Below are positions 374 through 9,171 of a stretch of DNA of 9,456 nucleotides, one piece after another. Position numbers and translations under genes: made by a program. The notes under the pieces were generated by a model. It ran no database searches. It saw nothing but the letters and a program-made list of their open reading frames with translations, and was not told the DNA's origin. Within the stretch, counting starts at the first letter, position 1; each line of letters begins with the position of its first letter. The DNA comes from Candidatus Pampinifervens yunnanense (GTDB lineage Bacteria; Aquificota; Aquificia; Aquificales; Aquificaceae): positions 1 to 9,456 of the forward strand of contig JAXSPD010000059.1 of the NCBI GenBank assembly GCA_037926845.1. The letters run 5' to 3'.

Positions 374-592
374 GAAGACTGCAAGATGATACACATCAGC
401 ATGGATTATAAACTATAATACTTGTCAAGGGTTTTCGTCAATCCCCCCCATTTTCCTATACTTTATTTTGTTTTGTTTCTCTCTTCTCTTTTCTGGCTCT
501 GCTATATTATTACTGTGGATATAATTTGCTATACGCTTACACCTGATGATATTGACCAGTTGGCTGAGTATAAAAAGCTTCCTGCCTCTCGT

Positions 593-1423
593 ATGGCTCG
601 CTTGGAGGACTTCCATATCTATGGTAGGCTGTACCCCGCTTGGTATCTTGCTTCTCTTTCTTCTCTTCCCGTTGTTTCTGGCTATCGTGTAAGCACTCCA
701 AAAATGAGATATTTCAGAAGGTCATATTATGCTTGGCTTCGTTATATTTCTATACCTAAGAGAAACTGGCTTTTTTTGACGCTCACCGTTTCAAGGGATT
801 ATGACTTTTTTACCGCTTGGGTCCATATAGGCTCTTGGGTGTCCGCTTTTCTAAACAGAATGAGAAATTACTTTAAAAAGCAGGGCATAAAGATAAGCTA
901 CTTTTGGGTGATTGAAGTTCATGAGGATGGATATCCACATGTACATATTTTAATTTCTTTTCCTTTTGTCAAGCTAAGTCAGGTTTACGCTTGGTGGAAA
1001 GATGAAAAGGGTAAAAACATATCAGCTTTTCAGGGTTTGGATATTGAGTTTATAGGCAAGAATGTTGAAAAAGTAAAGGCATACTTACTAAAGTACATGG
1101 TAAAGTCTCATAGTAAATACTGGTCTTTTGGTGTTAAGGGTGATGTGCGTTCTTTCTTGAGTGGTAAGGGTTCTATAGCTGTTTTAGTGAGGTGGTCTAC
1201 TCTCGTTATGTGGTTCTACCGTATAAGGCTTTTTGGCATGTCAAGGGACTTTCTCAAACCTTCCCATGATTCTTCTCCTTCTTTTTTTTTAGGCTTTATC
1301 CCTCTCACTGTTCTTTATTCGCTCAGATATGAGCCTTATCTTATAAAGTTCTCTGAGTTTCTCCGGGGGCTCTACTACACTGAGACATTAGATTTAGACA
1401 CTTATCTGCCCGTATTTAGGTAG
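593..1423 (+). CDS. Rolling-circle replication initiator, HUH endonuclease superfamily (phage gpII/gpA-like Rep)
   Basis: All three RCR motifs are present in order: motif I LFLTLTV (FLTLT at 773-787), motif II HUH YPHVHILISF (HVHIL at 938-952), and motif III with two Tyr, KAYLLKYMVKS (from 1082). The frame is open from 422, but the first ATG is at 593. No good RBS precedes any candidate start (TTG 422, GTG 515, TTG 560, ATG 593), so the start is uncertain while the stop is firm. Confidence 0.8.
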   Translation: MARLEDFHIYGRLYPAWYLASLSSLPVVSGYRVSTPKMRYFRRSYYAWLRYISIPKRNWLFLTLTVSRDYDFFTAWVHIGSWVSAFLNRMRNYFKKQGIKISYFWVIEVHEDGYPHVHILISFPFVKLSQVYAWWKDEKGKNISAFQGLDIEFIGKNVEKVKAYLLKYMVKSHSKYWSFGVKGDVRSFLSGKGSIAVLVRWSTLVMWFYRIRLFGMSRDFLKPSHDSSPSFFLGFIPLTVLYSLRYEPYLIKFSEFLRGLYYTETLDLDTYLPVFR

Positions 1424-1494
1424 TTTTAAACTTCAAATAGTGTAAACTTTGCGGAAAGTGAAGCTATATGAAAACTTTATTCTGGCTACCTTGT

Positions 1495-1523
1495 TTGACA
1501 TTTCTTATTTTCTCTCTTATGTT
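1495..1523 (+). promoter_or_regulatory. Candidate sigma70-type promoter for the ssDNA-binding/structural operon
   Basis: TTGACA (1495-1500), 17 nt spacer, TATGTT (1518-1523), located in the 124-nt gap between the Rep stop and the next RBS (AGGAGG 1535-1540). Confidence 0.45.
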
Positions 1524-1547
1524 GTTTGTCAGTCAGGAGGTAATAAT

Positions 1548-1850
1548 ATGGCTAACAATGGGATGGGTTCACCTCTAAAGTTGAAGGTTATGCTCGTGGA
1601 AAAGCGTAGAATATGGGAGAAAAATGGTAGGCAGGGTGCTATATACCAGCTTTATGGTCAGCTTGTCAATGAGCAGCCTAATTTCCCCCTTTATCTTGTA
1701 GTGACTGCCCCTGTTACATATCCCATTTCCCCGGGTGCTGTGATTGATGTTCCCATTTCTGGACTGACTGTCTCTCTCGGAGATCCTCTCTCTTCTGGCA
1801 TGTTTGAGGAGTTTCCTCTTCCTGCTTCAGTTCCTGAGGGTAAAAAGTGA
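1548..1850 (+). CDS. Candidate ssDNA-binding protein (gpV-like), 100 aa
   Basis: ATG 1548 is preceded by CAGGAGG. The track's earlier start at 1449 has no RBS and overlaps the promoter. Supporting points are position directly after Rep, size of about 100 aa, and a beta-rich pattern (LKLKVMLVEKRRIWEKNGRQGAIYQLYGQLVNEQPNFPLYLVVTAPVTYPISPGAVIDV). That pattern resembles Ff gpV (RQGKPYSLNEQLCYVDLGNEYPVLVKITLDEGQPAYAPGLYTV) in layout only. Confidence 0.55.
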   Translation: MANNGMGSPLKLKVMLVEKRRIWEKNGRQGAIYQLYGQLVNEQPNFPLYLVVTAPVTYPISPGAVIDVPISGLTVSLGDPLSSGMFEEFPLPASVPEGKK

Positions 1851-7307: not shown

Positions 7308-7377
7308 AGACGGGTAGGGGTGAGTGGGCTTGTTATATATATTTAACTAATTCAAAACTGAGTTTGGGGGTCTGGGT

Positions 7378-7614
7378 TTATATGTCTAAGCTTTTTAGCA
7401 GTATTTTAAATAGTGCTCCCTGTAGTAGTGCTATTTCTTGGAGTTCCAGCTTCATCGCTATTCGGTTTTGCTTCTCTCCCTTTTTTCCCTGCTCAATTGC
7501 TATAAATACTTTCCCGTTGCTGTTTTCTACTGTGAGCTTTTTCCACTCTTCGGTTTTGTCGTTGTACCTGAAAAACTCTATCCTTTTTCCGTTTCCGTTT
7601 TTAGTTTGTTCCAT
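7378..7614 (-). CDS. Small protein, 78 aa; possible PC4/YdbC-like ssDNA-binding fold (weak)
   Basis: Minus-strand ATG at 7614 with AAGGAGG (complement of 7622-7628) 7 nt upstream. It overlaps the end of the HU/IHF-like gene by 14 nt. SNGKVFIAIEQGKKGEKQNRIAMKLELQEIALLQGAL resembles the PC4 core pattern (FKGKVLIDIRE...KGISLNPEQWSQLKEQI) by eye only. Confidence 0.55.
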   Translation of the reverse strand: MEQTKNGNGKRIEFFRYNDKTEEWKKLTVENSNGKVFIAIEQGKKGEKQNRIAMKLELQEIALLQGALFKILLKSLDI

Positions 7615-9056
7615 TGCTTCTCCTCCTTGCTTGGATGTGGTTCTTCACTCTCACTTTTCCGTTTTTGAGCTTCCATGTGGCTAATCCTCTTAGCTCTATC
7701 CTTGCTCCCTTGAGTACCTCTCTCCTGATTGTCTCTATGAGTGCCTCCAGTATCTCCCTCGCTTGCTTCTCGTTGTAGCCTGTTTCTTCTGCCAGTAGTT
7801 TTATTATTGTCTGTCTGTTGTGCTTCATGGTTTGCCTCCTTTTGGAAAATTTCTTGGTGGAAATAAACTTGATGCTCCGCACCCTCCATGGGTTCGGAAA
7901 TATCTTTACACTCCACCAGTTTTAGCATCTCTTTATATATCTCAAGGTTTTCTACTGTTCTGGATAGTTCAAAGGCTTTTATTTTGTTTAGTTGTGAGCT
8001 TCTTAGTCTTTCTATGTTCTTCTCAATCTCGCTAATCTTAAACTTCAGGACTTCTTTATAATGTAGCCTGTGCTTTAGTGCGTAATATACAAGTTCAAAG
8101 AGCCGTGAGAGAAATTTGATATATCTCTTTTTAAAGTTCCATCCGCCGTAAACTCGTGCCTTGAGTATGTCCGTAAGTGGTAGGTAGTAGCTGTTTTTTC
8201 TGTGTGCCAGCCTGAAGAGGTTGAAAAACTTTCCCTTTATTTCTGTCCTTGCTTTATCTGTTTTCACTTTGTTTATGCTGGTTCCTGACTGCTCTCTTAT
8301 GGCTCCCATCAATGTGTAGCCTATGAAGGCATCTACTGAGGGAAAGTTCTTGATATCCCAATAGTAGGCTATGAGGGTTGCTATGAGTATGTCTCCTCCA
8401 AAGTATGGGAAAGATGATAGTATGGGATAATCTGGGTGGTTTCTGGCTATGCTTTTTAGCTCCTCCTCCAGCAGTTTCTGGCTTTCAATGGTGGTTTTAA
8501 GCTTTTTTAGTTCGCTGAGTGCTAACATGCTAAGTGCGTGAGGAGTGTTTTTTAGCTCTGCCTCAATCTCAGTTAAAGACTTTAGAAACTTGTCTCTTTT
8601 GAGGTTGTAGTATTCTTTGTATGGAAAGATTATAGCCGTGTATTGCATGAGTCTGTTCATTGTTCTTGTGAGGTCTTTTTCGTTCCGGATGTGCTGTCTT
8701 ACTATAGCCCTTAGGTTTATCATTGTAGGAAAAAAGGGTTTACAGTATTTTCTTTTTGTTTTGTCAAGGAAAAAAAGCCTAAGGTAATAGGCATCTATAA
8801 AATCATCTTTCCTTCTATCCCTGCCGTGTCTGAATGCTTTGAATTCTTTTCCATCTGCTATGTAAACCTTTGCTCCTGCATCTTCAAAAATGTAAGCCCA
8901 TCTGATGCCATAGGCTCCTGTCTGCTCTAAAACTACCGTGCTTTCTTTTACAAGCTCTTTTAGTAGCTCCAAGTCTTCATCTGTAATCTTGTATTTTTCC
9001 TTTCCATCGTGTAAAATAATAAAGTCCTTCGCTACATCACAGCCGTAAACTTTCAT
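7578..9056 (-). CDS. IS110/Piv-family DEDD (RuvC-like) transposase/recombinase with long C-terminal extension
   Basis: Minus-strand ATG at 9056 with AGGAGG (complement of 9065-9070) 8 nt upstream. The N-terminal DEDD-type motifs are MKVYGCDVAK, VVLEQTGAYG and RRKDDFIDAYYL. The C-terminal IS110 domain pattern is LSSFPYFGGDILIATLIAYYWDIKNFPSVDAFIGYTLMGAIREQSGTS...FKKRYIKFLSRLFELVYYALK. The recognisable core ends near aa 335. The last roughly 83 codons overlap the HU/IHF-like gene out of frame and look like low-complexity read-through. Confidence 0.8.
   Translation of the reverse strand: MKVYGCDVAKDFIILHDGKEKYKITDEDLELLKELVKESTVVLEQTGAYGIRWAYIFEDAGAKVYIADGKEFKAFRHGRDRRKDDFIDAYYLRLFFLDKTKRKYCKPFFPTMINLRAIVRQHIRNEKDLTRTMNRLMQYTAIIFPYKEYYNLKRDKFLKSLTEIEAELKNTPHALSMLALSELKKLKTTIESQKLLEEELKSIARNHPDYPILSSFPYFGGDILIATLIAYYWDIKNFPSVDAFIGYTLMGAIREQSGTSINKVKTDKARTEIKGKFFNLFRLAHRKNSYYLPLTDILKARVYGGWNFKKRYIKFLSRLFELVYYALKHRLHYKEVLKFKISEIEKNIERLRSSQLNKIKAFELSRTVENLEIYKEMLKLVECKDISEPMEGAEHQVYFHQEIFQKEANHEAQQTDNNKTTGRRNRLQREASEGDTGGTHRDNQERGTQGSKDRAKRISHMEAQKRKSESEEPHPSKEEKQWNKLKTETEKG
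7601..7828 (-). CDS. Short HU/IHF-family DNA-binding (architectural) protein, 75 aa
   Basis: Minus-strand ATG at 7828 with AGGAGG (complement of 7835-7840) 6 nt upstream. MKHNRQTIIKLLAEETGYNEKQAREILEALIETIRREVLKGARIELRGLATWKLK matches the HU/IHF helix-helix-beta pattern. Compare HBsu [52 protein letters not shown]. The beta-arm is short and lacks the usual RNPxTG segment. The track's longer 7882 start is a GTG with no RBS. Confidence 0.65.
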   Translation of the reverse strand: MKHNRQTIIKLLAEETGYNEKQAREILEALIETIRREVLKGARIELRGLATWKLKNGKVRVKNHIQARRRSNGTN

Positions 9057-9079
9057 CTCTCCTTCCTCCTTTTTAAATT

Positions 9080-9161
9080 AAGGAAGGTAAGGGTCGGAAT
9101 TATAATCCTCTGCCCCCGTAATGGAGGCAATAATAAAAGTCTCCGCCCTCTTACCTTCCTT
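9080..9161. repeat. Imperfect inverted repeat / structured element between recombinase start and alr
   Basis: AAGGAAGGTAAGGGTCGG (9080-9097) pairs with CCGCCCTCTTACCTTCCTT (9143-9161) in blocks of 11+3+3 bp, with a 2-nt TC bulge in the right arm and one unpaired T in the left arm. An inner hairpin at 9111-9129 (TGCCCCC GTAAT GGAGGCA) has one mismatch. There is no flanking T-run. Confidence 0.65.
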
Positions 9162-9171
9162 ACTTACCTGC

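What the first reader, a model, noticed from the sequence alone, without database searches (positions are those of the whole stretch)
412..9166. Apparently intact, highly divergent inovirus-like prophage between tpx and alr
Seen: from 1548 to 6954 all genes are on one strand, with overlaps of up to 8 nt or gaps of at most 4 nt. The order is Rep(HUH), ssDNA-binding candidate, coat-type mini-proteins, signal-peptide/C-anchor proteins, small hydrophobic protein and Zot/pI ATPase, followed by a structured non-coding region. The flanks are ordinary housekeeping genes. Established: this order plus a pI/Zot ATPase is the defining layout of Ff, Pf and CTXphi-type filamentous phages. Inference: about 8.8 kb is a normal inovirus size and I see no frameshifts, so the element could be active. 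Apart from Rep, the ATPase and the recombinase module, nothing is recognisable beyond architecture, which suggests a poorly sampled lineage. Lys/Glu/Ile-rich proteins and consistent AGGAGG sites hint at a thermophilic host, but I cannot establish the taxon.
Basis: partly seen in the sequence, partly recalled or inferred. Interest (0 to 1): 0.75.

Follow-up and report, generated by a model that had tools for sequence, protein, structure and literature searches.

The report
Hot-spring filamentous prophage with RNA-guided integrase
The window holds a complete-looking 8.8-kb filamentous-phage (inovirus) prophage of a hot-spring Hydrogenobacter, and sequence evidence indicates it was inserted between tpx and alr by its own IS110-type recombinase, whose two guide-RNA loops match the host target site and the phage ends.

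Summary
Window 412-9195 is one 8,784-bp mobile element between tpx (1-324, minus) and alr (9215-, plus).

- **Phage genes.** It carries a tightly packed plus-strand inovirus module. This has Rep (PF23343, 4.6e-15), a pVI-like protein and a Zot/pI ATPase (PF05707, 6.6e-21), followed by a conserved hairpin-rich intergenic region.
- **Integration module.** The minus strand carries an IS110-family DEDD/Ser recombinase, an HU-like gene and a 78-aa gene.
- **Empty site.** A 99.5%-identical Hydrogenobacter contig has the empty site, with the flanks joined over a 4-nt TTAT/ATAA core. An 88%-related phage sits at another locus.
- **Host and sampling.** The host is Hydrogenobacter (Aquificota). Relatives are common in hot-spring metagenomes and IMG/VR, but none is close to any GenBank phage.

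A target-binding loop (9075-9166) has guides that match both host flanks and co-vary with flanks in other insertions. A donor-binding loop (7853-7919) is hidden inside the 3' end of the recombinase ORF and matches the phage ends. The two loops lie about 1.15 kb apart, and the donor-guide order is swapped relative to IS621.

This is a new variant of known kinds (Nf/phiOH16-type inoviruses, IS110 bridge recombinases). Virion production is untested.

The parts
1..324 (-). Host tpx (thiol peroxidase), 5' part; left flank
   Evidence: The translation is 99% identical to H. thermophilus MAG Tpx P0167. Window 1-411 is 99.5% identical to L012.
408..411 (.). Core copy ATAA (TTAT in recombinase sense) at the tpx-side junction
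   Evidence: In the empty site L012 the two flank matches overlap by exactly these 4 nt.
412..441 (-). Recombinase-sense right end (RE) of the element. It holds the left-donor sequence ...TATAGT. TTGACA (428->423) would become the -35 of a junction promoter in the circular form.
   Evidence: Homology with L003/L004 starts at 404. The donor-loop 3' guide matches AGT+TTAT. TTGACA-17 nt-TACAAT is read directly across the inferred attP, and the same arrangement is seen in L003, L007 and L010.
509..1423 (+). Rolling-circle replication initiator Rep (HUH: HVHIL; Y motif KAYLLKY). The ORF is open from 422 and the start is uncertain (GTG 509 or ATG 593).
   Evidence: PF23343 REP_ORF2-G2P, 4.6e-15; phrog_3584, 1.4e-6. 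It is 86% identical in L004 and about 50% in Thermocrinis and Pampinifervens phages.
1548..1850 (+). 100-aa protein in the position of the ssDNA-binding protein (g5p-like candidate). It is the most conserved protein in the five-member comparison.
   Evidence: No Pfam, PHROG or PDB hit. The AF2 single-sequence model has pLDDT 47. Identity in the five-member protein alignment is 68-94%. The assignment is positional only.
1847..1990 (+). 47-aa hydrophobic mini-protein (minor coat candidate)
   Evidence: ORF and translation. No significant family hit.
1992..2294 (+). 100-aa soluble protein, function unknown, conserved in the phage family
   Evidence: 100% identical in L004; 41-55% in the others.
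2297..2434 (+). 45-aa major-coat candidate. It has no signal peptide, one TM helix and a basic C-terminus (Pf3-like form).
   Evidence: Translation. Weak hit to phrog_1646 'major coat protein', E = 0.056. 61-96% identical across the family.
2427..2918 (+). 163-aa Cys-rich protein with a signal peptide and a C-terminal anchor (minor coat or adsorption candidate)
   Evidence: Translation. No family hit. Conserved at 27-75%.
2920..3132 (+). 70-aa protein with a signal peptide and a C-terminal anchor
3125..3538 (+). 137-aa protein with a signal peptide and a C-terminal anchor
3540..5672 (+). 710-aa pIII-like receptor-binding/adsorption candidate with a signal peptide and a C-terminal anchor. It is the most divergent gene.
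   Evidence: Translation. 30-49% identity to relatives. The centre (4250-5133) is not alignable with L004 at the DNA level. No family hit.
5675..5896 (+). 73-aa pVI-like minor coat protein
   Evidence: phrog_306, 2.9e-5, and phrog_974, 7.5e-5. DUF2523 at 19.1 bits, below the 22.1-bit cut-off.
5893..6954 (+). pI/Zot morphogenesis ATPase: Walker A GTPGAGKT, a TM helix and a Pro/Ser-rich C-terminus
   Evidence: PF05707, 6.6e-21. phrog_197, 5.2e-38. 66 homologues found.
6955..7377 (+). Intergenic region with a large imperfect hairpin (7045-7230; inner perfect 15-bp stem 7103-7117/7154-7168). Candidate packaging signal and/or replication origin.
   Evidence: ssDNA fold z = -8.9. The hairpin core is nearly invariant against L004 in an alignment with 90% mean column identity (blastn 85% for the whole region), against about 80% elsewhere. 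It shows compensatory and paired-deletion changes. Inverted repeats I1 and I20.
7378..7614 (-). 78-aa ORF, third gene of the recombinase operon. Its start overlaps the recombinase ORF stop by 37 nt.
   Evidence: only a weak 'transcriptional regulator' PHROG hit, E = 0.06. 88% identical in L003/L004 only.
7601..7828 (-). HU/IHF-like DNA-binding protein (75 aa), read in a different frame inside the 3' tail of the recombinase ORF
   Evidence: PF00216, 1.6e-11. phrog_379, 1e-10. Its RBS and ATG explain the 'KEANHE' motif in the recombinase tails. HU-like ORFs occur at the same place in L007, L009, L010, L038 and L059.
7853..7919 (-). Donor-binding loop (DBL) RNA stem-loop inside the recombinase ORF. 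The 5' guide UGUAAAGAUAUU (7899-7910) pairs with TAT+CTTACA of the left end, with a 1-nt bulge. The 3' guide ..AAGUUUAU.. (7863-7875) has the sense of the right end AGT+TTAT.
   Evidence: RNAalifold on 12 family members gives 17 pairs, 15 with compensatory changes. Guide/DNA covariation is seen in L052 (CTTGCA) and L059 (CTTATA).
7578..9056 (-). IS110-family DEDD/Ser recombinase ORF (492 aa). The catalytic part is aa 1-385 (9056->7902). Residues 386-474 form a non-conserved segment predicted to be disordered.
   Evidence: PF01548, 1.6e-10. D7, E44, D85 and S257 are invariant, and D88 is nearly invariant (>=90%), in 76 homologues. AF2 pLDDT is 81.6, with 386-474 below 50. The best PDB fold matches are IS621 8WT6/8WT9 (E = 7e-10) and ISCro4 9T56.
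9075..9166 (-). Target-binding loop (TBL) RNA stem-loop in the recombinase 5' leader. The 5' guide ACUUUUAUUAUU is at 9129-9140 and the 3' guide AGGAUUAUAAUU at 9098-9109.
   Evidence: RNA fold z = -4.7. The guides match the alr-side flank plus core (10 nt) and the core plus tpx-side flank (9 nt). They co-vary with flanks in L003, L007 and L009. 14 of 37 family loci reach >=10/11, against 1.8% of cross-locus pairs. RNAalifold gives 10 of 14 pairs with compensatory changes.
9057..9191 (-). Recombinase-sense left end (LE). Its terminus is CTTACAAT (9191->9184), and TACAAT would be the -10 of the junction promoter.
   Evidence: Homology with L003/L004 ends at 9199. The CTTAC(A/C) terminus is conserved across the family.
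9192..9195 (.). Second core copy ATAA at the alr-side junction
   Evidence: window 9192-9215 = L012 99-76, 100% identity.
9215..9456 (+). Host alr (alanine racemase), 5' part; right flank
   Evidence: Window 9213-9432 matches the alr gene next to tpx in H. hydrogenophilus L013.

Best explanation
Window 412-9195 is an 8,784-bp temperate inovirus (filamentous ssDNA phage) integrated in the tpx-alr spacer of a Hydrogenobacter chromosome.

**Replication and assembly (inferred from the family).** As a circular replicative form it would replicate by rolling circle, using its HUH Rep. It would export ssDNA through a pI/Zot ATPase with small membrane-inserted coat proteins. It encodes no secretin, so a host secretin is presumed.

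**Integration (shown by sequence logic; not tested biochemically).** Integration uses the phage's own IS110-family DEDD/Ser recombinase, programmed by two RNA loops.
- A target-binding loop in the recombinase leader has two guides that pair with the two halves of the host site CTTTTAT-TAT-AATCC (recombinase sense).
- A donor-binding loop lies 1.15 kb downstream, inside the end of the recombinase ORF. Its guides pair with the phage's joined ends ...TATAGT-TTAT-CTTACA....
- Crossover within the shared TTAT gives the observed 4-nt duplication.

**Regulation (inferred).** In the circular form the two ends assemble a near-consensus promoter (TTGACA-17-TACAAT) reading into the loop and the recombinase. 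The integrase would therefore be expressed from the episome and much less from the prophage. The HU-like protein probably bends DNA in the synaptic complex (inferred).
For: **Prophage identity.**
- Rep, pVI-like and Zot profile hits.
- Ten tightly packed plus-strand genes from the SSB candidate to Zot. With Rep they form an 11-gene module conserved across the relatives whose contigs cover them, from Thermocrinis, Pampinifervens and hot-spring metagenomes.
- A structured, conserved intergenic region.

**One mobile unit.**
- Homology with the 88%-related phage runs exactly 404-9199, while the flanks differ. That phage sits between hpt and aspS.
- The empty site in L012 joins window 411 to 9192 over ATAA.
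- tpx and alr are adjacent in H. hydrogenophilus.

**Recombinase.**
- PF01548 hit. D7, E44, D85 and S257 are invariant and D88 is nearly invariant (>=90%) in 76 homologues.
- The best fold matches are IS621 and ISCro4 bridge recombinases.

**Guides.**
- The TBL guides match both flanks (10 and 9 nt) and change with the flank in L003, L007 and L009.
- Family-wide, 14 of 37 unique loci have >=10/11 flank-to-guide matches, against 1.8% of cross-locus pairs.
- Far-end junctions predicted from the guides alone were each found exactly once: in L007 (13-mer, 0.0006 expected) and in L054 (12-mer, 0.0012 expected).
- The DBL guides match the element ends and co-vary with them.
- Both stem-loops show compensatory pairs.

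**Strand logic.** Left guides pair with the bottom strand and right guides with the top strand, as published for IS621.
Against: - No circular junction, ssDNA or virion could be examined for this element.
- The window lacks two small ORFs (87 aa and 114 aa) that the closest relative L004 carries. A needed regulator could therefore be missing.
- The ssDNA-binding and coat assignments have no significant homology support.
- The donor loop has its right-donor guide 5' and its left-donor guide 3', the reverse of IS621. How such a loop fits the known synaptic geometry is unexplained.
- The donor loop lies inside an ORF, so its existence as a free RNA is inferred.
- 23 of 37 family loci do not reach the >=10/11 flank-to-guide match. 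The lowest scorers are mainly attP-type contigs that share a conserved end; possible assembly chimeras and several intermediate 8-9/11 matches make up the rest.
- The empty-site contig L012 shares only 24 nt on the alr side before diverging.
Confidence: 0.83

Rival explanations
1. Two independent elements lie side by side: an inovirus prophage or remnant integrated by some other route (for example host XerCD, as for CTXphi), plus a separate IS110 insertion sequence that landed next to it.
For: IS110-family elements are autonomous insertion sequences. This recombinase subfamily is found mostly without inovirus genes: none of the 52 metagenome loci has them. Related inoviruses carry other IS110-type recombinases, at 25% identity or undetectable.
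Against: - The recombinase's donor guide matches the far end of the phage next to rep, 8.6 kb away, not a site next to the recombinase.
- The empty site removes phage and recombinase together.
- The same composite with the same ends is present at a different locus in L003/L004, with re-programmed target guides.
- No second set of element ends lies between Zot and the recombinase module.
Confidence: 0.04
2. It is a defective, vertically inherited prophage remnant (or domesticated element) that can no longer excise or make virions.
For: No direct evidence of activity exists. The window lacks the 87-aa and 114-aa ORFs of L004. The L003 copy of the sister phage is visibly being degraded by a DDE IS insertion. 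Excision by bridge recombinases is intrinsically inefficient (PMC13626964).
Against: - All 11 conserved phage ORFs and the three integration-module ORFs are full length compared with L004.
- Both target guides still match the flanks perfectly.
- A strain with 99.5%-identical flanks has the empty site, so insertion is recent or polymorphic.
- The contig breaks just outside both junctions, as expected when lysogens and non-lysogens coexist in one assembly (inference).
Confidence: 0.1
3. It is a non-viral integrative element (a cargo-bearing IS110 or small plasmid) that merely carries a Zot-like ATPase.
For: Cargo-bearing IS110 elements of 2-100 kb are described (preprint 10.64898/2026.08.14.744561). 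The same recombinase family carries non-inovirus cargo in L007, L010 and L054.
Against: The cargo is the full inovirus gene set in canonical order: RCR Rep, small coat-type proteins, a pIII-like protein, a pVI-like protein and pI/Zot. It also has a conserved hairpin-rich intergenic region. IMG/VR lists relatives among its viral contigs.
Confidence: 0.03

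Closest known systems
Neisseria Nf / MDA-phi filamentous prophages and Thermus inoviruses phiOH16, Zuza8 and Zuza27
   Same: These are inoviruses whose provirus has the replication initiator at one end and an IS110-family transposase at the other. 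The transposase is thought to mediate integration and excision (PMC11437467; PMC7058167). The Thermus phages are also thermophilic.
   Different: tblastn of the whole GenBank phage collection with the window's Zot and recombinase found no match at E <= 1e-5 and 1e-3. The best Zot matches at any E-value are at most 30% identical over about half the protein. The host phylum is Aquificota, for which no isolated virus had been reported as of 2020 (PMC7689252). In the papers I could search, no bridge-RNA guides have been described for those phages.
IS621 / ISCro4 bridge-RNA recombinases (IS110 family)
   Same: - DEDD RuvC-like domain plus a Ser-bearing Tnp domain, with the same fold.
- Internal-loop guides in which the left guide pairs with the bottom strand and the right guide with the top strand, both including a short core.
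- A bulged right-donor guide.
- A short core duplication and a promoter assembled across the circle junction.
   Different: - The core is TTAT rather than CT.
- The cargo is a whole virus.
- The target loop and the donor loop are 1.15 kb apart, and the donor loop lies inside the recombinase ORF. They are not adjacent in the left end (IS110 group) or the right end (IS1111 group).
- Donor-guide order is RDG-5'/LDG-3' rather than LDG-5'/RDG-3'.
- An HU-like gene follows in an overlapping frame.
- Split TBL/DBL guides are so far described as an engineering trick (PMC13604230).
CTXphi, Pf and Ff-type inoviruses
   Same: pI/Zot ATPase, RCR Rep, a unidirectional compact gene block and a hairpin-rich intergenic region. 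Like CTXphi and Pf it has no secretin gene, and like Pf3 its coat candidate has no signal peptide.
   Different: Integration does not use host XerCD (CTXphi) or a tyrosine integrase (Pf4). Apart from Rep, the pVI-like protein and Zot, no protein has recognisable sequence similarity to them.

Membership tests
Inovirus (Tubulavirales) genome | pI/Zot-type morphogenesis ATPase | tested here: met
   PF05707, 75.1 bits against a 20.3-bit cut-off, E = 6.6e-21. phrog_197, 5.2e-38.
Inovirus (Tubulavirales) genome | Rolling-circle (HUH) replication initiator | tested here: met
   PF23343, 56.1 bits against a 27.8-bit cut-off. The HVHIL and YLLKY motifs are read in the translation.
Inovirus (Tubulavirales) genome | Small (5-15 kb) genome with unidirectional, tightly packed structural genes ending in pVI-like and pI genes | tested here: met
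   8,784 bp. Ten genes from 1548 to 6954 with overlaps of at most 8 nt. pVI-like: phrog_306, 2.9e-5; the Pfam DUF2523 hit is below its cut-off.
Inovirus (Tubulavirales) genome | Major coat protein of about 45-80 aa with one TM helix and a basic C-terminus | tested here: inconclusive
   The 45-aa ORF 2297-2434 has the right form. The only hit is phrog_1646, E = 0.056.
Inovirus (Tubulavirales) genome | g5p-type ssDNA-binding protein | tested here: inconclusive
   No Pfam, PHROG or PDB-profile hit, and the AF2 model has pLDDT 47. The position and the small size fit.
Inovirus (Tubulavirales) genome | Circular ssDNA packaged in a filamentous virion | not testable with these tools
   Needs culture or virome DNA, DNase and S1 nuclease tests, and electron microscopy.
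Integrated prophage (mobile insertion) | A precise empty site in related genomes, and the same element at other loci | tested here: met
   L012 empty site with a 4-nt overlap. L013 has tpx-alr adjacency. L003/L004, L006 and L078 are at other loci.
IS110-family bridge recombinase system | DEDD RuvC-like domain plus a Tnp domain with a catalytic Ser | tested here: met
   PF01548, 41.4 bits against a 29-bit cut-off. PF02371 is only 17.1 bits against 21.3. D7, E44, D85 and S257 are invariant and D88 is nearly invariant (>=90%) in 76 homologues. Foldseek to 8WT6, E = 6.7e-10, TM(target) 0.67-0.70.
IS110-family bridge recombinase system | RNA internal loop whose two guides match the left target (bottom strand) and the right target (top strand), including the core | tested here: met
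   Guide-based junction predictions were confirmed in L007 and L054.
IS110-family bridge recombinase system | Second loop whose guides match the joined element ends (donor) | tested here: met
   The guide order is reversed relative to IS621.
IS110-family bridge recombinase system | Both loops encoded contiguously as one ncRNA in a non-coding end (LE for the IS110 group, RE for the IS1111 group) | tested here: not met
   The TBL is in the leader at 9075-9166. The DBL is at 7853-7919, inside the 3' part of the recombinase ORF, about 1.15 kb away. This holds in all family groups examined.
IS110-family bridge recombinase system | Circular dsDNA intermediate with a junction promoter | tested here: inconclusive
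   attP-type and concatemer contigs exist for relatives with other cargo (L010, L043-L053). TTGACA-17-TACAAT would form across this element's junction (direct reading). No circle was observed for this element.
IS110-family bridge recombinase system | RNA-dependent recombination activity | not testable with these tools
   Needs in vitro or in vivo recombination assays with guide mutants.

The most novel reading that the evidence does not exclude
The Hydrogenobacter phage exemplifies a distinct thermophilic clade of bridge recombinases that works as a portable, re-programmable integrase for whole viruses and small plasmid-like circles in Aquificota.

The guide RNA in this clade is naturally split. 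The target loop is in the 5' leader, and the donor loop is embedded in the 3' end of the recombinase reading frame. The donor loop has inverted guide order, and an HU-like partner is encoded in an overlapping frame.

Sister phages would retarget their chromosomal attachment site simply by changing about 7 + 5 guide nucleotides, as seen between the window (tpx-alr) and L003/L004 (hpt-aspS).
Probability: 0.55. Interest if true: 0.78.

Novelty: new variant of a known kind. Interest (0 to 1): 0.62.

Why it matters
- **A defined virus for Aquificota.** As of 2020 no virus of Aquificota had been isolated (PMC7689252). This gives a complete, precisely delimited temperate virus for that phylum, with attB, attP, core and host identified.
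- **A mechanism for an old assumption.** Some inoviruses (Nf, phiOH16) are assumed to integrate 'with an IS110 transposase'. Here there is a concrete, testable mechanism: guide loops that read both the host site and the phage ends. Natural re-programming is visible between sister phages.
- **A new bridge-RNA architecture.** The loops are split, the donor loop lies inside the ORF, the donor-guide order is reversed, and an HU-like partner is present. The organisms grow at about 70 C, which bears on the mechanism and on thermostable genome-editing tools.
- **An annotation trap.** The 492-aa 'transposase' ORF hides an RNA element and an overlapping HU-like gene.

Tried and rejected
- Exact-protein look-ups of the window's Zot found nothing on record, so the source assembly stays unknown.
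- tblastn of Zot and the recombinase against GenBank phages gave no match at E <= 1e-5 and 1e-3. Zot gave only matches of at most 30% identity at E <= 1.
- The IMG/VR scan with the recombinase found nothing.
- The Rfam scan gave only a spurious mir-1976 hit (27.8 bits against a 71-bit gathering score), which is simply the TBL hairpin.
- The ssDNA-binding candidate stayed unresolved. The single-sequence AF2 model was too poor (pLDDT 47) to search with. A 5-sequence profile against PDB gave only chance hits.
- A strict regex for the TBL found only the closest relatives, so I switched to an unbiased flank-versus-LE match test.
- I looked for a second, canonical donor loop adjacent to the TBL or in the non-coding ends, and for copies of the end sequences elsewhere. 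None was found. The donor loop turned up inside the ORF through a conserved GCGGAG motif.
- Canonical (IS621-order) pairing of the donor loop with attP was checked by eye and does not fit. Only the swapped order fits.
- Guide-based RE junction predictions for 10 further loci found nothing. In most cases the contigs end before the far junction. L059 and L065 have about 10 kb downstream and still gave no hit.
- XerCD/dif integration was considered but not searched for specifically. It was set aside because the junctions are fully explained by the IS110 system.

Full report
**1. Checking the observation**

The ORF map shows an uninterrupted plus-strand block. It runs 1548-1850, 1847-1990, 1992-2294, 2297-2434, 2427-2918, 2920-3132, 3125-3538, 3540-5672, 5675-5896 and 5893-6954.

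Profile searches support the key genes.
- The ORF ending at 1423 is a rolling-circle Rep (PF23343, 4.6e-15; HUH motif HVHIL).
- 5893-6954 is a Zot/pI ATPase (PF05707, 6.6e-21; phrog_197, 5e-38).
- 5675-5896 is pVI-like (phrog_306, 2.9e-5; DUF2523 below its cut-off).
- 7578-9056 on the minus strand is an IS110-family DEDD transposase (PF01548, 1.6e-10).

The flanks are tpx (start codon at 324, minus strand) and alr (from 9215).

The non-coding stretch 6955-7377 folds far better than shuffled sequence (z = -8.9 as ssDNA). Its hairpin core is the best-conserved part of the element and shows compensatory changes against the closest relative.

The ssDNA-binding and coat assignments remain positional. 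They have no significant hits, and the single-sequence structure model was unusable.

**2. Host, relatives and sampling**

The Zot protein has 66 homologues with E <= 0.001 in public data. The closest are 88% identical (a Hydrogenobacter thermophilus MAG chromosome) and 85% identical. About fifty hot-spring metagenome proteins, a Thermocrinis MAG and Pampinifervens florentissimum fall at 64-70%. Twelve fragmentary IMG/VR UViGs belong to the same group.

All 11 phage genes, from Rep to Zot, are conserved across the relatives whose contigs cover them. The large pIII-like gene is the most divergent, at 30-49%.

By contrast, no GenBank phage has a Zot more than 30% identical, and none matches the recombinase. 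So 'highly divergent' is true relative to deposited phages. 'Poorly sampled' is only true in the sense that nothing is cultured.

Tpx is 99% identical to an H. thermophilus MAG protein, so the host is Hydrogenobacter (Aquificota). As of 2020 no virus of this phylum had been isolated (PMC7689252).

**3. It is a discrete insertion**

Alignment with the 88%-related phage (L003/L004) shows homology running exactly from window 404 to 9199. The flanks are unrelated, because that phage sits between a phosphoribosyltransferase gene and aspS. The Pampinifervens relative and L078 sit at yet other loci.

Contig L012, from another H. thermophilus MAG, is 99.5% identical to window 1-411. It then continues directly with window 9192-9215, and the two matches overlap by four bases, ATAA. 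This is an empty site. It fixes the element as 412-9195 (8,784 bp including one core copy) with a 4-nt duplication.

In H. hydrogenophilus, tpx and alr are adjacent and divergent with about 100 nt between them.

There is one caveat. L012 diverges from the window 24 nt into the alr side, so something else differs at the alr start in that strain. This is unexplained.

**4. How it got there: a bridge-RNA-type recombinase**

*The protein.* The recombinase belongs to an Aquificota subfamily of IS110 enzymes (100 homologues). D7, E44, D85 and S257 are invariant and D88 is nearly invariant (>=90%) across 76 sequences. An AlphaFold model built on that alignment has pLDDT 81.6, with residues 1-385 above 90. 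Its best structural matches are the IS621 and ISCro4 bridge recombinases (E = 7e-10).

*The target-binding loop.* Immediately upstream of the gene, on its strand, lies a stem-loop at window 9166->9075 (z = -4.7). It contains an internal loop.
- The 5' side, ACUUUUAUUAU, equals the recombinase-sense sequence of the alr-side flank plus core: CTTTTAT+TAT, 10 nt.
- The 3' side, GGAUUAUAA, is the reverse complement of the core plus the tpx-side flank: T+TAT+AATCC, 9 nt.

This is the published strand logic of the IS621 target-binding loop. There the left guide pairs with the bottom strand and the right guide with the top strand, and both include the core.

In the sister phage the flanks differ and the guide letters differ correspondingly. 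The same holds for two elements with unrelated cargo, L007 and L009.

I then fetched 52 further loci with this recombinase family and compared each locus's flank-plus-core 11-mer with its own left end.
- 14 of 37 unique loci match at >=10/11, always at the 5' guide position.
- Only 1.8% of cross-locus pairs reach that score.
- The lowest-scoring loci are mainly attP-type contigs that share a conserved end. Several others match at 8-9/11.

Far-end junctions predicted purely from guide sequences were each found exactly once, at plausible distances.
- AGCTTATAAAGCT in L007, 11.35 kb downstream (0.0006 expected).
- AGCTTATAAGCC in L054, 9.26 kb downstream (0.0012 expected).

RNAalifold on 19 diverse members supports the two helices that frame the loop. 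Ten of 14 pairs show compensatory changes.

*The donor-binding loop.* No second loop lies next to the first. A conserved GCGGAG motif led to a second stem-loop at window 7919->7853. It sits inside the recombinase ORF at about codon 380-400.
- Its 5' guide, UGUAAAGAUA, pairs with TAT+CTTACA, the first bases of the recombinase-sense left end, with one bulged base.
- Its 3' guide contains AGUUUAU, the sense of the last bases of the right end (AGT) plus TTAT.

The loop is present in every group of the family. Guide and DNA co-vary: CTTGCA ends go with GCA..AAG in L052, and CTTATA ends go with UAU.AAG in L059. The left-donor guides match the conserved ends seen in attP-type contigs. Fifteen of 17 predicted pairs show compensatory changes, even though the region is 'coding'. 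The only protein motif conserved there (C-K/Q-D-I-S) is in fact the RNA guide.

*Differences from IS621.*
- The two loops are 1.15 kb apart instead of contiguous.
- The donor loop has its right-donor guide on the 5' side and its left-donor guide on the 3' side.
- The core is TTAT.
- An HU/IHF-like gene (PF00216, 1.6e-11) starts right after the donor loop. It is read in a different frame from the recombinase ORF, whose tail shows no conservation across 76 family members and is predicted disordered over residues 386-474.

Engineered split TBL/DBL guides are known to work and even to improve activity (PMC13604230). A natural split is therefore mechanistically plausible.

*Junction promoter.* Joining the element's ends gives CCCTTGACA-AGTATTATAGTTTATCT-TACAAT. 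This is a 6/6 -35 hexamer from the right end, a 17-nt spacer and a 5/6 -10 hexamer in the left end, and it reads into the target loop and the recombinase. The same arrangement appears in L003, in L007 and in the attP-form contig L010 (direct reading). This is the classical IS110 circle-junction promoter idea. It would restrict strong integrase expression to the episomal form. This step is inferred.

**5. One element or two?**

- The donor guide matches the end next to rep, 8.6 kb from the recombinase.
- The empty site removes everything at once.
- The same composite occurs at another locus with re-programmed target guides.

The phage and the recombinase module are therefore one mobile unit.

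The module itself is portable. The same recombinase family carries an 11.5-kb element with lysozyme- and peptidase-type genes (L007), a 6.9-kb circle assembled as a concatemer (L010) and a roughly 9.4-kb element (L054). None of the 52 metagenome loci has inovirus genes. Related inoviruses use other IS110-type enzymes, at 25% identity or undetectable, yet keep an HU-like gene.

**6. Is it active?**

Evidence for activity:
- All conserved ORFs are full length relative to L004.
- The guides still match the flanks perfectly.
- The site is polymorphic among near-identical strains.

Evidence against activity:
- The window lacks the 87-aa and 114-aa ORFs of L004.
- Bridge-recombinase excision is inherently inefficient.
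- Nothing here shows a circle, ssDNA or particles.

I rate 'intact temperate phage' as likely but unproven.

**7. Comparison with what is known**

The provirus layout, with Rep at one end and an IS110-family transposase at the other, is known from Neisseria Nf/MDA-phi and from the Thermus inoviruses phiOH16, Zuza8 and Zuza27. For those phages the transposase is assumed to integrate the phage.

Bridge RNAs are known, and cargo-bearing IS110 elements have recently been reported.

I found no paper that connects bridge RNAs with filamentous phages. The split-loop paper search and the review I read turned up split guides only as an engineered design. They mention no reversed donor-guide order and no HU-like partner.

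The prophage itself is a new member of a known kind. Its integration system is a new variant of a known kind.

**8. Verdict**

The added value is the mechanism of site choice and an unusual guide-RNA architecture.

Interest is 0.62. For a specialist the phage alone is modestly interesting. The naturally split, re-programmed bridge system in a thermophilic virus is the surprising part, and it is directly testable.

Noticed in passing
window 7578-7900 (minus strand); same region in L003, L007, L009, L010, L038, L045-L059: The recombinase ORF stays open for about 80-100 codons beyond its last conserved residues in essentially all 76 family members. It reads through the donor loop and across a downstream gene in another frame: HU-like in some groups, a signal-peptide protein in others. 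The tails show no conservation across family members, and residues 386-474 of the window protein are predicted disordered. Why the frame stays open is unexplained; translational coupling to the 78-aa gene is one possibility.
   Followed up: partly
L012 1-75: In the empty-site contig the sequence upstream of the attB is not alr. Homology to the window stops right at the alr start codon, which suggests another rearrangement or insertion in that strain.
   Followed up: no
window 423-431, 1239-1247, 7109-7117, 7154-7162 (rc): TGTCAAGGG occurs four times against 0.09 expected. One copy is at the rep-proximal end, where its TTGACA is the putative junction -35. One is inside the 3' part of rep, and two form the arms of the intergenic hairpin. 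It could be a Rep or regulator binding site.
   Followed up: partly
L003 6663-7505 versus L004: The chromosomal copy of the sister phage in the H. thermophilus MAG (CP076323) is interrupted by a DDE_Tnp_1 insertion sequence. The Logan assembly of the same element is uninterrupted.
   Followed up: partly
L010 (13,984-bp contig), repeat period 6,939 bp: This contig is a head-to-tail duplicated assembly of a roughly 6.9-kb circular, non-inovirus element. It carries the same recombinase family, the HU-like gene and both loops, and it is in attP form.
   Followed up: partly
L007 about 9,790-21,360; L054 about 120-9,540: Two other elements, 11.5 kb and about 9.4 kb, use the same recombinase family. 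The 11.5-kb one (L007) carries SLT, peptidase M15 and transglutaminase genes. Neither has a tblastn match to the window's phage proteins, and the cargo of the 9.4-kb one (L054) was not examined. Both junctions of each are predicted by their guide sequences.
   Followed up: partly
L001, L006, L014, L020, L021: Related Aquificaceae inoviruses keep an HU-like gene (40-47% identical to the window's). In L001 and L006 it lies next to a different IS110-type recombinase (25% identity in L001, undetectable by tblastn in L006). Upstream of the L006 recombinase are two adjacent stem-loops, as in canonical bridge RNAs.
   Followed up: partly
window 4250-5133: The centre of the pIII-like gene cannot be aligned at the DNA level with the 88%-related phage, while the rest of the genome is 79-85% identical. 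It looks like a swapped or fast-evolving host-recognition domain.
   Followed up: no
window 9433-9456: The last roughly 24 nt of the contig no longer match alr of H. hydrogenophilus and translate oddly (...PTWPRCFP). This is probably an assembly end artefact.
   Followed up: no
window 6955-7377 versus L004 7226-7522 and 7920-8359: The sister phage has two extra small ORFs flanking the conserved hairpin region: 87 aa on the plus strand and 114 aa on the minus strand. The window lacks both. Their function is unknown; the 114-aa ORF could be a regulator.
   Followed up: no
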